From the NCBI GenBank assembly GCA_964521755.1, contig CAZFSZ010000002.1:7549-71548 (forward strand): a stretch of 64,000 nt of DNA. The letters are read 5' to 3'. Source of the stretch: an uncultured Methanosarcinales archaeon (GTDB taxonomy: Archaea; Nanobdellota; Nanobdellia; Woesearchaeales; WJKL01). The position numbers and the translations under genes were made by a program. The notes beneath the pieces are model-generated. The model was not told the DNA's origin, did no database searches, and saw only the letters and a program-made list of their open reading frames with translations. Of this stretch, positions 1,628 to 62,895 are shown in pieces. Numbering within the stretch: the first letter of the stretch is position 1; every line of letters starts with the position of its first letter.

Positions 1628-1973
1628 GGTAGAGAAGCGATAAGCCACCTTTTGTCAGCCTCCACGCATCACATGGGCAGACTGCCTTAACATTCTACTT
1701 AGCGTGCTCAACGGCACTTGCACCAGTCAGGATTCGGATTTCACCGCTCCCATAACCAACGTCAAAGGATTAACTCACTTGCTTCGCAGCAAAGCTTCGC
1801 CATATCATCCTCAGTTATGGACGTGTTTTTCTGACCCATTGCCGCAGATTTCTCCGCCTGCCATAACAGCAGTGACACATAATCAGTGGGTGGACTTTCC
1901 TCAGCGATATTTTAAAAAACATCTGTTTAAAGATGTTAAATCAAATCACCGTCAGTTAAGTGCTTCCCCTACC
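1628..1973 (-). ncRNA. rnpB: RNase P RNA
   Basis: GC-enriched ~346-nt island in AT-rich DNA. The minus strand carries GAGGAAAGUCC (CR-I, plus coords ~1892-1902) and ACAAAAGGUGGCUUAUCG (CR-V-like, ~1638-1660). The 5' end GGUAGGGGAAGC pairs with the 3' end GCUUCUCUACC (P1). An internal GGGAGCGGUGAAAUCCG...GGUGCAAGUGCCG resembles the conserved GNRA/P10-12 region. The overlapping ORF 1704..1976 is spurious. Confidence 0.8.
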
Positions 1974-1988
1974 TAAAATTATAAATTT

Positions 1989-11171: not shown

Positions 11172-11594
11172 ATGGCAAAAAAGAAAAGCAAGAAAAATAG
11201 CAAAGAAGAAGAGGAAGTTTTCTATGTAGGTATGAAAGACCCTATAGAGATAAGAAGATCTATCTTAGAATCTTCCAAAGAGATGCTTCAATACCTTCAA
11301 AGATTTGAGAAATTCAAAAAAGTAAGAAAAGAAAAAAAAGAAGAGATTTCTCAATTAGAGGAAACTATGAAGGAGATACAGTCTCTTGTAAGAAAACTCA
11401 AAAAAGAGCTGCCAAAGACAGGGTTAAGAGCTGCTGGTAAAAAGAAAAAAACAAAGAAGAAGAAAGGCAAGAAAAAAAAGATTAAAAAAGAAGCCCCTAA
11501 ACCTGAGGTAAAAAAGCCGGAAGAGATGACTGAGCTTGAAAGACTTGAAGCAGAGCTTAACGAGATTGAAGGAAGGCTTACAAGCTTAACTTAG
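11172..11594 (+). CDS. charged coiled-coil protein, paralog 3 (more divergent; poly-Lys linker)
   Basis: FYVGMKDPIEIRRSILESSKEML...coiled coil; a K-rich linker; weak similarity to the two neighbours. Confidence 0.5.
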   Translation: MAKKKSKKNSKEEEEVFYVGMKDPIEIRRSILESSKEMLQYLQRFEKFKKVRKEKKEEISQLEETMKEIQSLVRKLKKELPKTGLRAAGKKKKTKKKKGKKKKIKKEAPKPEVKKPEEMTELERLEAELNEIEGRLTSLT

Positions 11595-11686: not shown

Positions 11687-11846
11687 GCGGAGGTGCCGGA
11701 GTGGCCAAATTAGCCAAAAGCTAAGGCTTAACGGGGCAGACTCAAGGCATTTGAGTGTTGAGTGCTCATCTGAGTGCGATGAAAAGACCATTTGTAAGTC
11801 ATCTGCTGGCTTAGTGCCTACAGGGGTTCGAATCCTCTCCTCCGCA
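11687..11846 (+). tRNA. tRNA-Leu(CAA) candidate with two introns (D-loop intron ~11710-11731; canonical 37/38 intron ~11748-11801); CCA not encoded
   Basis: Acceptor GCGGAGG/CCUCCGC plus discriminator A. T-arm AGGGG-UUCGAAU-CCUCU. Class II variable arm UGGCUUAGUGCCUAC. D-arm CCG-GAGUGGCCAAA-CGG once a 22-nt hairpin insert (UUAGC-CAAAA-GCUAA..) is removed. Anticodon stem GCAGA/UCUGC is split by a ~54-nt insert right after the loop CUCAAGG. Mature length would be ~84 nt. Confidence 0.6.
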
Positions 11847-11961
11847 TCTAAATTAAAACAGATAGGGGCGTTCGTGTGATTTTATATCACACAAAACTCA
11901 CCACAAGATGATAAGGATAAAATCCTTGTGTGGGAATCCTCTCCCCTGCATTTTTTACAAT

Positions 11962-12432
11962 ATGAACAATGCAACTCTATGCCTGATAATAGACGAAAAG
12001 TCCAAAAAGATACTTCTGGGAATGAAAAAACGCGGTTTTGGAAAAGTCAAGTGGAATGGTTTTGGAAGAAAGCCTGAAAAAGGGGAAGATATTCATGATG
12101 CTGCAGTCAGAGAAACAAAAGAAGAGGCAGAATTAGATATATCAAGAAAAGATATAAAAAAGATAGGAAAACTAAACTTTAATTTTTCAGCCAAACCTGG
12201 ATGGTATCAAACTGTACATCTATTCATGGCAAAAACATGGCAGGGCTCTCCCAAAGAAAGCGAGGAGATGAAACCTAAATGGTTTGAATTCAAAAAAATC
12301 CCATTTGAAAAAATGTAGGAAGATAACAAACATTGGCTGCTTCTTGTATTAAAAGGAAAGAGCATCAAAGGAAATTTCATTTTTGAAAAAGATAACAAGT
12401 CTATCAAAACACATTCTATAAAAGAAATTTGA
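11962..12432 (+). pseudogene. 7,8-dihydro-8-oxoguanine triphosphatase (MTH1/NUDT1-like Nudix hydrolase) interrupted by in-frame TAG at 12316-12318
   Basis: LLGMKKRGFGKVKWNGFGRKPEKGEDIHDAAVRETKEEAELDI matches the MTH1 core and Nudix box. After IPFEKM the frame hits TAG, then continues in frame as EDNKHWLLLVLKGKSIKGNFIFEKDNKSI, matching MTH1 ...[30 protein letters not shown]. The stop therefore sits at a conserved Trp (TGG to TAG). A readthrough gene or a sequencing error are also possible. Confidence 0.55.
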
Positions 12433-14665: not shown

Positions 14666-15373
14666 ATGGCCAAAAAAGAAACACAACTAGGATTAAACGG
14701 GAAAAAAGCAAAAAAGCCAAAAGAAATAACTATTAAACTAAATACTGCTCATCTAAAAACTGCAGCCCATATTCTTATAATTTTTATATTATTATCAATC
14801 ATATTTGCCCAGCAGATTGGATGGATACCCACAAAAGATTATGTTGGCTTAGCAACATCTTATCTCAATAATAACAGCCGGGAAGAAAAGATAGTAAATG
14901 CCAAAAAAACACCTGGTGTAACCATTATCAAGCCTAATGGCAGTGAAACTTCTAATTCAAACAATAACAGCTCTTCAGAAAATCAAACAGCATCAAAAAA
15001 TAATAATAACACAGAACAAAAAAAAGATGAATTGCTTCCGATAACAGGAGAAATAATATTCACTATAGACAAAATAAATATAGATCCAAAAGAAAATATA
15101 GAAGACTATTCTAAGATCACTTCAGTAAAATTCACTATAAAAAACCAGGATGAAGATCTAGACGATCCCAAGATTATTGGTTACCTCACCATGTATGGGG
15201 AAGATGATGAAAAAACAGTTGACTTAAACAAAATAGAAGCCGGACACCAGATAACTGAAACTGAAACAAATCTTATATTTGGATATAATAAAATAGACGA
15301 AGAACATATATTAAATCTGGAATTATATAATGACAAAAAGCTTGTAAAAAAAGTATCAAAAAAATTTAATTAG
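14666..15373 (+). CDS. membrane-anchored extracellular protein (N-terminal TM, Asn/Ser-rich linker), unknown function
   Basis: One TM (HILIIFILLSIIFAQQIGWI), then a low-complexity NNSSSENQTASKNNNN stretch and a ~120-aa domain. Confidence 0.4.
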   Translation: MAKKETQLGLNGKKAKKPKEITIKLNTAHLKTAAHILIIFILLSIIFAQQIGWIPTKDYVGLATSYLNNNSREEKIVNAKKTPGVTIIKPNGSETSNSNNNSSSENQTASKNNNNTEQKKDELLPITGEIIFTIDKINIDPKENIEDYSKITSVKFTIKNQDEDLDDPKIIGYLTMYGEDDEKTVDLNKIEAGHQITETETNLIFGYNKIDEEHILNLELYNDKKLVKKVSKKFN

Positions 15374-44227: not shown

Positions 44228-45674
<1,447 letters not shown>

Positions 45675-45683
45675 TCTCAAGAA

Positions 45684-46751
45684 TCAATAATTCAGCTTAT
45701 ATCTCAATATTGCTCCAATTCCTCCCAAACCTTCCAATTTCTTTCCTCCTTCAAACTCGCTGCTGATGATATGAACTTCTCCTTTTGTTTTGTCTGTGAA
45801 TTTCATCACTTCATCAACTTTTTTGTATTTTCCCTCTTCTCTTTTTTTGTCTATAAATTTGTCAGTTATCAATAAAACTTTTACTGCTCCTGCAGCTGCT
45901 GCCTTCTCTACTTCCTTAAATCCATATGAACCTAACTCTTGTTTTGATATCTCTGTCAGCAGCTCTTCCACTAACTTCAGTTCCTTTGAAACCCTGTCTT
46001 TCTTCAATACTTCCCTTGTCTCAGGCCTTTTCAAAACCTCATTAACTGCGTTTTCTCCAACGCTGCTGCACGTGGCTGTTATAATCTTTTTCTTTAATTT
46101 GTCATCTTCAATTCTGTTGATTAATTCTTCTTTCCAAAAAGCAGGACTTGCAACAATGATATGGTCTGTTTTGTATCTTTCTGAATATTCCTTCAGCATT
46201 TTTATAATATCTTCATAAAAACTTCCTCTCGCTACTGCTTTTTCTTCCTTTTTCTGAACCTCTCCTTCTAAAAATGTTAAGATATCATATCCTTTTCTTT
46301 TTGAAAGTGCAAAGATTGCCTCTTCCCTATTCAAGATACATATTAATATTGAAGGCTGTTTAAAAGATGCAGCCTCTTTTAATTTATCTAACTGAAATTT
46401 AAGCCATTTCTCTTTTTTTATTTCTGCTATCTTTCCTTCCTTAAAATTAAATGTATGATGGCTTCCTTTTGGAACTTCCTCAGGACCTTCCTTAACAACA
46501 CCTGAAATCCTTAATATATCGTCTTTAAACTCTATTTTCTCCACTTCAATTGAAATAAAAATATTCTTTTTTGTGGTCTCTGTCCTTCTCTGCTCTTTTT
46601 CTCCTATCTTTATCTTTCTGACAGTTTTTCCGCTGATAATGTCTCCTGCTTCAATTATATGGCTTAAATACCACAAATCATCAAGACTATCTATTTTAAC
46701 TTTTATTTCATTTTTTCTTAGATTTTTTCTAATTATCTTCATTATATACAA
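45684..46751 (-). CDS. pelA: Pelota/Dom34 (mRNA surveillance, aRF1-like)
   Basis: Three-domain aRF1-like architecture with N-terminal MKIIRKNLRKNEIKVKIDSLDDLWYLSHII. Confidence 0.8.
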   Translation of the reverse strand: MYIMKIIRKNLRKNEIKVKIDSLDDLWYLSHIIEAGDIISGKTVRKIKIGEKEQRRTETTKKNIFISIEVEKIEFKDDILRISGVVKEGPEEVPKGSHHTFNFKEGKIAEIKKEKWLKFQLDKLKEAASFKQPSILICILNREEAIFALSKRKGYDILTFLEGEVQKKEEKAVARGSFYEDIIKMLKEYSERYKTDHIIVASPAFWKEELINRIEDDKLKKKIITATCSSVGENAVNEVLKRPETREVLKKDRVSKELKLVEELLTEISKQELGSYGFKEVEKAAAAGAVKVLLITDKFIDKKREEGKYKKVDEVMKFTDKTKGEVHIISSEFEGGKKLEGLGGIGAILRYKLNY

Positions 46752-57729: not shown

Positions 57730-57772
57730 ATAAAATTATTAAAATCTTTGATTTATATAGCTTATGGGTAAA

Positions 57773-57842
57773 TGTCCAGTGACCAGTGGTTATCTGGACT
57801 CTTACGCTCTGTCCAGTGACCAGTGGTTATCTGGACTCCTAC
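57773..57842. repeat. two tandem copies of a ~33-nt hairpin-forming repeat (TGTCCAGTGACCAGTGGTTATCTGGACTC..TAC)
   Basis: Exact 29-nt cores at 57773-57801 and 57810-57838, period 37. Each contains the inverted repeat GTCCAG...CTGGAC. Lies 45-115 nt upstream of the Cas4-like gene start. Confidence 0.85.
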
Positions 57843-58098
57843 CCTTATATATTAAATTATAAAATCAAAACAATAAATCTTAAGTTTGCATTGAAAAGTT
57901 CTCCGTCTGTGTTAGGTGCCTGCACGATGTGCGACTCTTCGCTATTGCCAATTATTGCACAGCAATAATGGCATGGTCAGACGTAGCTGGCTGGGTTGCC
58001 ATACTTTAGTGGGGCGTTCCAGTCAGCGAAGTATGAAAATTTTCAATGCGACCATCTTAAAGAAACCTTTTTATACTATTTGCCTAAATAATACTTTA

Positions 58099-62722: not shown

Positions 62723-62761
62723 ATTTGTTTTCTTGGTTTTAATGATTTATAATTTGAATTT

Positions 62762-62838
62762 GTGCAGTGCTACCCAGTTACTTCCGTTCATCATCCTTTC
62801 GTCAGTCGGTGTTCACATGGATCATCGCACTGTTGCAC
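62762..62838 (-). ncRNA. possible small structured RNA (box C/D-like elements AUGAUGA and CUGA on minus strand) or bidirectional terminator hairpin
   Basis: GC-rich 77-nt island in a convergent intergenic region. Terminal stem GUGCAACAGUGC/GCACUGCAC. The minus strand carries GAUGAUC...CUGA...AUGAUGA.... Confidence 0.2.
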
Positions 62839-62895
62839 TTCCAAAGGATTTCCTTTTATAATATTAAAATCTGCGCCCTTATAAAACTTATGTAA

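What the first reader, a model, noticed from the sequence alone, without database searches (positions are those of the whole stretch)
11962..12432. Eukaryote-like MTH1/NUDT1 Nudix hydrolase with in-frame TAG at a conserved Trp codon
The protein aligns closely to human MTH1 (LLGMKKRGFG..WNGFGGK...E...RE..EE). The ORF stops at IPFEKM-TAG but stays open and conserved for 37 more codons (EDNKHWLLLVLKGKSIKGNFIFEKDNKSI), aligning to MTH1 ...[30 protein letters not shown]. The TAG therefore sits where Trp (TGG) is expected. Options: (i) a very recent pseudogene (single G-to-A); (ii) a sequencing or assembly error; (iii) amber readthrough or suppression. An MTH1-type 8-oxo-dGTPase in a DPANN-like archaeon is itself notable.
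Basis: seen in the sequence. Interest (0 to 1): 0.5.

Follow-up and report, generated by a model that had tools for sequence, protein, structure and literature searches.

The report
Broken MTH1-type Nudix gene (young pseudogene)
A nucleotide-cleaning enzyme gene (MTH1 type) in an uncultivated Woesearchaeota-like archaeon carries one G-to-A change that turns an invariant tryptophan codon into a normal stop codon, so it is most likely an ordinary, recently inactivated gene and not a case of an altered genetic code.

Summary
Window 11962-12432 (+) encodes a full-length MTH1/NUDT1-type Nudix protein (E about 1e-35, 42% identity to mammalian MTH1 chains). It is interrupted by TAG at 12316-12318, at the position of human MTH1 Trp117.

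- **Single change:** the two syntenic orthologs read ATG TGG at this codon, where the window reads ATG TAG.
- **Not an assembly artefact:** an independent Logan assembly of run SRR7048227 is 100% identical over 6.3 kb, TAG included.
- **TAG is an ordinary stop here:** it ends 10 of 78 ORFs, at the ends of Pfam domain models and where an ortholog uses TAA.
- **No sign of recoding:** no other gene in 64 kb is split by TAG. There is no stable RNA structure downstream and no tRNA(CUA) in the window.
- **Suggestive decay:** the window lineage has more amino-acid changes than its sister (19 vs 8; neighbouring genes 17:16 and 4:5). Three hit near-invariant residues (Nudix-box Gly to Arg, the Asp120 equivalent to Asn, a Pro to Leu).

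Best reading: a young pseudogene.

The claim that an MTH1 type is notable in a DPANN archaeon fails. The family has over 2600 database relatives and occurs in at least 591 species genomes, mostly DPANN and Patescibacteria. Interest is low.

Side finding: an adjacent two-intron tRNA-Leu(CAA) that standard tRNA finders miss.

The parts
11962..12315 (+). N-terminal 118 codons of the MTH1/NUDT1-type Nudix gene. It holds the Nudix box region, with the first Gly replaced by Arg (R36) and the last Gly by Glu (E57).
   Evidence: (Pfam NUDIX, 2.3e-12). NCBI and Logan gene callers annotated only 12022-12318 as a 98-aa protein, P0003.
12316..12318 (+). In-frame TAG replacing the invariant Trp codon (human MTH1 Trp117). 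Orthologs have TGG here.
12319..12432 (+). The 37 still-open, still-homologous C-terminal codons plus the original TGA stop. They include the equivalents of human D119 (kept), D120 (now N122), W123 and F139.
   Evidence: Pocket residues are taken from PMC5054044.

Best explanation
The gene is an ortholog of the MTH1/NUDT1-like 8-oxo-dGTP diphosphatase that is common in DPANN archaea. In this lineage a single G-to-A transition changed the invariant Trp codon TGG to the stop codon TAG.

TAG is read as an ordinary stop in this organism, so translation ends after residue 118. The product lacks 5 of the 11 residues that form the human base-binding pocket (Trp117, Asp119, Asp120, Trp123, Phe139) and the C-terminal part of the fold. 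It should therefore be inactive as a nucleotide-pool sanitiser.

The locus is thus a young pseudogene. It has no frameshift and no second stop, and it is still recognisable end to end. There is a modest excess of lineage-specific replacements, some at near-invariant sites.

Shown: the TAG, its position, TGG in the orthologs, TAG used as a stop elsewhere, and agreement between two assemblies. Inferred: loss of function, and the timing. My rough estimate puts inactivation in the last ~5% of the branch since the split from the L002 lineage.
For: - Full-length homology with the TAG on the invariant W.
- ATG TAG GAA in the window against ATG TGG GAA/CAA in the syntenic orthologs L002 and L003.
- The Logan contig of SRR7048227 is 100% identical over 6297 bp.
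- Stop usage is TAA 47, TGA 21, TAG 10 of 78 ORFs.
- The upstream gene 11172-11594 ends with TAG exactly where the L002 ortholog ends with TAA. Gene 14666-15373 ends with TAG at the same residue as its L002 ortholog.
- TAG-terminated genes end at the ends of their Pfam models: Peptidase_M48 185/186, RNase P p29 84/84, CorA 291/292.
- The only other long open run after a gene-ending TAG (45615) is antisense to the Pelota gene. The remaining TAG cases lie on the strand opposite the called genes.
- Lineage-specific amino-acid changes, polarised with L003, are 19 for the window against 8 for L002. The neighbouring genes give 17:16 (RNase J) and 4:5 (PCNA).
- The window-specific changes include G36R (first Nudix-box Gly), D122N (human Asp120) and P127L, all columns at least 90% conserved.
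- The strict Nudix-box pattern is no longer matched.
- The family-profile score is 219 bits, against 233-234 for the two nearest relatives.
Against: - The relaxed-constraint signal is weak. The binomial test gives p = 0.05-0.08 and Fisher's test against the neighbours gives p = 0.14.
- The profile score is still mid-range for the family, and two intact homologs break as many or more conserved columns.
- Overall dN/dS against L002 is still low at 0.13.
- Raw reads were not available, so a population polymorphism or a consensus error is not strictly excluded.
- The whole genome was not available, so a suppressor tRNA elsewhere is not excluded.
- Standard tRNA finders fail on this genome's intron-rich tRNAs.
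Confidence: 0.85

Rival explanations
1. Sequencing or consensus error, or a minor allele. The real, dominant genome would have TGG and the gene would be intact.
For: Only one sample (SRR7048227) contains this species, so both assemblies probably rest on the same reads. Scans for other copies found nothing. All other genes compared have ortholog-like lengths, so an isolated defect stands out.
Against: Two independent assemblies agree base for base over 6.3 kb. The site is not a homopolymer or repeat. The same lineage also carries substitutions at other near-invariant positions of this gene, G36R, D122N and P127L, which an error at one base would not explain.
Confidence: 0.07
2. Programmed readthrough or suppression of this TAG (a suppressor tRNA, pyrrolysine-like decoding or a partial TAG reassignment) yields a full-length enzyme.
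For: The downstream 37 codons are still open and homologous. The absence of a detected tRNA(CUA) is weak evidence, because default tRNA finders miss even the obvious tRNA-Leu in this window. Only 64 kb of the genome was seen.
Against: TAG terminates 10 of 78 ORFs at ortholog-matched or domain-matched ends. No other gene is split by TAG. The RNA downstream of the TAG folds no better than shuffles, z = -0.20. No T-arm-like motif occurs outside the tRNA-Leu, apart from hits inside ORFs. The extra damaging substitutions in the gene fit decay better than maintenance.
Confidence: 0.04
3. The 118-residue truncated protein is made and retained for a new or partial function, for example a degenerate Nudix domain that binds but does not hydrolyse.
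For: The upstream part has low dN/dS (0.08) against L002, and the catalytic RE..EE residues are retained.
Against: The low pairwise dN/dS mostly reflects the long shared history before the stop. The first Nudix-box Gly is lost. Five of the 11 pocket residues are removed by the truncation. No homolog of about this length, other than contig-end fragments, appears among the 120 best hits.
Confidence: 0.04

Closest known systems
Human/mammalian MTH1 (NUDT1), 7,8-dihydro-8-oxoguanine triphosphatase (e.g. PDB 1iry, 3zr0, 6ehh)
   Same: It has the same length and aligns end to end at about 42% identity. It keeps the equivalents of Asn33, Phe27, Phe72, Asp119, Trp123 and Phe139, and the RE..EE catalytic residues.
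   Different: The Trp117 codon is a stop. The Asp120 equivalent is Asn. The first and last Nudix-box glycines are Arg and Glu. No activity was tested.
Prokaryotic MTH1-like '8-oxo-dGTP diphosphatase' of DPANN archaea and Patescibacteria (e.g. P0001 of JGI 3300022699; P0018, Ca. Woesearchaeota; P0010, Micrarchaeia)
   Same: It is the ortholog at the same locus (tRNA-Leu, Nudix, RNase J, PCNA), at 77% identity to P0001 and 62% to P0002.
   Different: Those genes are uninterrupted, with TGG at the Trp codon. The window copy is broken and carries three unusual replacements at near-invariant positions.
E. coli MutT-type 8-oxo-dGTPase (NCBIfam NF008044 / TIGR00586)
   Same: Both are Nudix-fold proteins with the same presumed substrate class.
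   Different: The match is weak: 31 bits against a cutoff of 148, and 22 bits against 97.9. The gene belongs to the MTH1 branch, not the MutT branch.
Genome-wide or site-specific TAG recoding in archaea (pyrrolysine decoding)
   Same: An in-frame TAG in a conserved gene is the only shared feature.
   Different: TAG is a regular terminator here. There is no second case, no downstream structure and no tRNA(CUA) in the window. The codon replaces Trp, not a pyrrolysine position of a methylamine methyltransferase.

Membership tests
MTH1/NUDT1-type Nudix hydrolase | Full-length sequence similarity to solved MTH1 structures and a Pfam NUDIX domain | tested here: met
   E 6e-36 to 2e-34 over residues 6-156. 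PF00293 at 47.5 bits against a cutoff of 21.1.
MTH1/NUDT1-type Nudix hydrolase | Intact Nudix box GX5EX7REUXEEXGU | tested here: not met
   The first Gly (human G37) is Arg36 and the last Gly (G58) is Glu57. E42, R50, E51, E54 and E55 are kept. The strict pattern is not matched.
MTH1/NUDT1-type Nudix hydrolase | Base-pocket residues Asn33, Trp117, Asp119, Asp120 (PMC5054044) | tested here: not met
   Asn and Asp119 are kept. Trp117 is a stop codon and Asp120 is Asn.
MTH1/NUDT1-type Nudix hydrolase | Uninterrupted reading frame | tested here: not met
   TAG at 12316-12318. Both orthologs are uninterrupted.
MTH1/NUDT1-type Nudix hydrolase | 8-oxo-dGTP / 2-OH-dATP hydrolysis | not testable with these tools
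   This needs an enzyme assay.
Pseudogene (recent inactivation of a conserved gene) | Disabling change at a site that is sense in syntenic orthologs | tested here: met
   TGG in L002 and L003 at the same locus.
Pseudogene (recent inactivation of a conserved gene) | Relaxed selective constraint on the lineage | tested here: inconclusive
   19 vs 8 lineage-specific changes (p about 0.05), with neighbours balanced. dN/dS is 0.47 downstream and 0.08 upstream, on small counts. The profile score is 14 bits below the nearest relatives but within the family range.
Pseudogene (recent inactivation of a conserved gene) | The change is real in the DNA, not an artefact | tested here: inconclusive
   Two independent assemblies are identical.
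TAG recoding (sense reassignment or pyrrolysine) | TAG avoided as a terminator and present in-frame in several conserved genes | tested here: not met
   10 of 78 ORFs end in TAG, at ortholog-matched or domain-matched ends. There is no other split gene.
TAG recoding (sense reassignment or pyrrolysine) | tRNA with a CUA anticodon (and pyl genes) | tested here: inconclusive
   None in the 64 kb window. The only tRNA is tRNA-Leu(CAA). The rest of the genome was not available, and default finders miss intron-rich tRNAs.
TAG recoding (sense reassignment or pyrrolysine) | Stimulatory RNA structure 3' of the codon | tested here: not met
   For 12300-12432, MFE is -17.2 kcal/mol and z = -0.20 against shuffles.

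The most novel reading that the evidence does not exclude
The TAG is decoded at low efficiency as an amino acid (Trp or another) by an undetected, intron-containing suppressor tRNA or by context-dependent readthrough. The cell would then still make some full-length MTH1-like enzyme. This would be a first hint of amber suppression in a Woesearchaeota-type DPANN archaeon.
Probability: 0.03. Interest if true: 0.55.

Novelty: already known. Interest (0 to 1): 0.1.

Why it matters
It matters little. The practical value is for annotation. The locus should be flagged as a pseudogene of an MTH1-like 8-oxo-dGTP diphosphatase, not as a 98-aa NUDIX protein. It should not be used as evidence for an alternative genetic code.

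If the loss is real, this lineage lacks this oxidised-nucleotide sanitiser at its conserved locus. That fits ongoing gene loss in reduced DPANN genomes and could slightly raise A:T to C:G mutation.

The wide presence of a eukaryote-like MTH1 family in DPANN archaea and Patescibacteria is an evolutionary point of some interest. It is already visible in public databases.

Tried and rejected
- **Other copies of this species, to look for a TGG allele.** A single-protein scan of GTDB species genomes found nothing. An exact 33-mer with N at the variable base found nothing in JGI metagenomes. A protein scan of metagenomes gave only an unrelated 22% hit. Exact-protein look-ups of the neighbouring PCNA and a 76-aa gene returned only the same sample.
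- **Cluster look-up of P0003 and P0001.** It gave no names or accessions.
- **Literature.** I found no paper on MTH1 in DPANN and none citing SRR7048227.
- **Release factor.** I hoped the eRF1-domain protein at 45684-46751 (-) was aRF1, so that its stop-recognition motifs could be inspected. It lacks GGQ and NIKS and is Pelota.
- **Conserved-column and profile-score tests.** The window is high or low but not a unique outlier, so these are reported only as suggestive.
- **ARAGORN's single-intron parse of the adjacent tRNA as Leu(AAG)**. I rejected it in favour of a two-intron Leu(CAA) parse, because all differences among the four orthologous tRNA genes fall in the proposed introns and the exons are conserved.
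- **A suppressor tRNA in the tRNA-linked second element 11863-11951.** Rejected: no CUA lies in any hairpin loop.

Full report
**1. The observation**

Window 11962-12432 on the + strand starts with ATG and runs 118 codons to TAG at 12316-12318. It stays open for 37 more codons and ends with TGA at 12430-12432.

With Trp placed at the TAG, the 156-residue protein has a Pfam NUDIX domain. It aligns over residues 6-156 with solved mammalian MTH1/NUDT1 chains (E 6e-36 to 2e-34; 64/151 = 42% identity to 6ehh_A). The TAG lies on the W of the MWPDD motif, which is human Trp117.

In PMC5054044 the MTH1 base pocket consists of Asn33, Asp119 and Asp120, plus Leu9, Phe27, Phe72, Met81, Val83, Trp117, Trp123 and Phe139. 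A stop at this codon removes five of those eleven residues.

**2. What the orthologs say**

The database search returned 2644 relatives at E <= 1e-10. The nearest is P0001 (77% identity, 160 aa), followed by P0002 (62%).

Both sit on contigs that share gene order with the window. L002 carries gyrA, ScpB, MJ0538-like, LTD, radical SAM, three small genes, tRNA-Leu, Nudix, RNase J and PCNA. L003 shares Nudix, RNase J and PCNA. A GTDB genome labelled Candidatus Woesearchaeota archaeon Bin_028 (L033) has the same arrangement, with RNase J 73% and PCNA 78% identical. The organism is therefore a Woesearchaeota-type DPANN archaeon. An archaeal RNase P RNA at 1628-1973 (-) fits this.

At the DNA level the window reads ATG TAG GAA where L002 reads ATG TGG GAA and L003 reads ATG TGG CAA. 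This is a single G-to-A transition. The W column is invariant in a 33-sequence alignment.

**3. Is the TAG real?**

The database holds the truncated 98-aa product (P0003, from M21 to the TAG) from two sources. One is an NCBI contig of 75,116 bp. The other is a Logan assembly of run SRR7048227, 40,293 bp. The Logan contig is 100% identical to the window over 6297 bp, TAG included.

The site is not in a repeat or a long homopolymer. Neighbouring genes have the same lengths as their L002 orthologs (807, 288, 443 and 247 aa), so the assembly is not generally noisy.

I could not see reads, and no other sample contains this species. A consensus error or a minor allele is therefore unlikely but not excluded.

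**4. Is TAG a stop codon in this genome?**

Yes, as far as 64 kb can show.

- Of 78 non-overlapping ORFs, 47 end in TAA, 21 in TGA and 10 in TAG.
- The gene just upstream (11172-11594) ends with TAG at exactly the residue where the L002 ortholog ends with TAA. Gene 14666-15373 ends with TAG at the same residue as its ortholog.
- TAG-terminated genes end where their Pfam models end: Peptidase_M48 185/186, RNase P p29 84/84, CorA 291/292.
- I scanned every stop for long open runs on both sides. The Nudix TAG is the only gene-internal candidate. The TAG at 45615 is followed by an open run that is antisense to the Pelota gene. The others lie on the strand opposite the called genes.
- The RNA after the TAG folds no better than shuffles (z = -0.20).
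- ARAGORN and Rfam found no tRNA. A T-arm motif scan and a look at GC-rich intergenic islands revealed only one tRNA, a tRNA-Leu(CAA).

One caveat applies. That tRNA has two introns and is missed by default tools. A negative tRNA(CUA) search on this genome therefore needs intron-aware methods and the full MAG.

**5. Signs of decay beyond the stop**

Using L003 to polarise changes, the window lineage has 19 specific amino-acid differences (18 without the stop), against 8 in L002. The flanking genes are balanced: RNase J 17:16 and PCNA 4:5.

The window-specific changes include three at columns at least 90% conserved:

| Change | Position in human MTH1 |
|---|---|
| G36R | G37, first Gly of the Nudix box |
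| D122N | Asp120 |
| P127L | conserved Pro after Trp123 |

G57E, at the last Nudix-box Gly, is also window-specific, but that column is variable in the family. The strict Nudix-box pattern no longer matches, and no other Nudix-box gene exists in the window.

A cross-validated family HMM scores the W-restored window protein at 219 bits, against 233-234 for its two nearest relatives.

These signals point the same way but are statistically modest. The binomial test gives p = 0.05-0.08 and Fisher's test against the neighbours gives p = 0.14. The window is not a unique outlier in either test. Pairwise dN/dS against L002 is 0.13 overall, 0.08 upstream of the stop and 0.47 downstream, on small counts.

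As a rough inference, an excess of about 10 replacements over about 380 non-synonymous sites, on a branch of dS about 0.5, puts inactivation in the last few percent of the branch. The gene is young as a pseudogene, but probably not a one-mutation-old event. Alternatively, function had already been drifting before the stop.

**6. Explanation and rivals**

- **Best (0.85):** a real TGG-to-TAG nonsense mutation. It truncates the enzyme before its base-recognition residues and leaves a young pseudogene.
- **Consensus error or minor allele (0.07):** argued against by the two assemblies and by the other unusual substitutions.
- **Readthrough or suppression (0.04):** argued against by normal TAG use, the lack of other cases and the lack of a downstream structure.
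- **A retained truncated protein with another role (0.04):** has no positive support.

**7. Comparison with what is known**

The gene belongs to the MTH1/NUDT1 branch of Nudix hydrolases, not the E. coli MutT branch. The NCBIfam MutT models score far below their cutoffs.

In fact the family is common there and in Patescibacteria. These were dominated by Woesearchaeota, Nanoarchaeia, Micrarchaeota, Pacearchaeota, Undinarchaeota and many Patescibacteria lineages. NCBI already names such proteins 8-oxo-dGTP diphosphatase. I found no paper that discusses this distribution, but it is plain in the databases.

**8. Verdict**

This is an ordinary, recently broken copy of a known gene family. It is not a recoding event. 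Novelty: already known kind. Interest: 0.1. The most novel reading not excluded is low-level amber suppression by an undetected tRNA, at about 3% probability.

**9. Things seen on the way**

- **Two-intron tRNA.** The 367-nt gap upstream of the gene holds a tRNA-Leu(CAA) at 11687-11846. It has two introns: 11710-11731 in the D-loop and 11747-11800 at position 37/38. After in-silico splicing ARAGORN calls it tRNA-Leu(caa).
- **Intron position differs between relatives.** The tRNA is conserved in L002, L003 and L033. In L003 and L033 the first intron sits in the anticodon stem instead of the D-loop.
- **A variable spot between the tRNA and the Nudix gene.** L002 has 13 nt there. The window and L033 each have an element of about 100 nt that shares a GATAAGGAT-loop-ATCCTT hairpin and ends in a copy of the tRNA 3' end: 15/17 nt in the window and an exact 26 nt in L033. 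L003 has about 1 kb with a LAGLIDADG-like ORF.
- I did not resolve what the small element is.

Noticed in passing
window 11687-11846 (+): This is a tRNA-Leu(CAA), anticodon at 11743-11745, with two introns: 11710-11731 in the D-loop and 11747-11800 at position 37/38. Default ARAGORN and all Rfam models miss it. After in-silico splicing ARAGORN calls it tRNA-Leu(caa). With its intron option ARAGORN gives a less convincing single-intron Leu(aag) parse. Differences among the four orthologous genes fall in the proposed introns.
   Followed up: partly
window 11710-11731 vs L003 4842-4872 and L033 ~2709-2740: The first intron of the orthologous tRNA-Leu(CAA) sits in the D-loop in the window and L002. 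In L003 and L033 it sits inside the anticodon stem. This suggests intron gain, loss or movement within this Woesearchaeota clade. The 37/38 intron carries conserved box C/C'-like motifs (GUGAUGA, UGAUGAAA), reminiscent of intron-encoded C/D guide RNAs.
   Followed up: partly
window 11863-11951 (+); L033 ~2864-2957: A structured element of about 90-100 nt lies between the tRNA-Leu and the Nudix start. It ends in a copy of the tRNA 3' end: GAATCCTCTCCcCtGCA, 15/17 nt, 0 of 500 shuffles as good. L033 has an equivalent element with a shared GATAAGGAT-loop-ATCCTT hairpin and an exact 26-nt copy of the T-arm plus acceptor strand. L002 lacks it. It may be an att-type duplication from a tiny integrating element, a tRNA-derived repeat or an alternative tRNA 3' half. 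This is unresolved.
   Followed up: partly
L003 4976-6000: In this relative the same spot, between the tRNA-Leu 3' end and the Nudix gene, holds about 1 kb with a 243-aa LAGLIDADG_3-like ORF. The 3' side of the tRNA-Leu is therefore an insertion hot spot.
   Followed up: no
window 1628-1973 (-): Archaeal RNase P RNA (RF00373, 115 bits, E 1.6e-31). The mechanical ORF 1704-1976 (+) on top of it is spurious.
   Followed up: no
window 57764-57845 (+): An intergenic GC-rich element made of two near-identical 28-nt hairpin units (GTCCAGTGACCAGTGGTTATCTGGACTC), enclosed by a GGGTA/TACCC stem. It matches no Rfam family. It may be a small RNA or a protein-binding site.
   Followed up: no
window 62761-62843 (-): An intergenic GC-rich stretch. 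Its minus strand reads ...GCGATGATCC...CTGA...GGATGATGA...CTGG... between terminal complementary ends (GTGCA.../...TGCAC). It looks like a box C/D small RNA with imperfect boxes.
   Followed up: no
window 45684-46751 (-): A 355-aa protein with eRF1 domains 1-3 but no GGQ or NIKS motif, so it is Pelota (Dom34) and not release factor aRF1. No release factor gene was seen in the window, although most ORFs were not annotated.
   Followed up: yes
window 12022-12318 (+): Public annotation (NCBI and Logan gene calls) lists this locus as a 98-aa NUDIX protein starting at Met21. That hides both the conserved N-terminal strand and the pseudogene status.
   Followed up: yes
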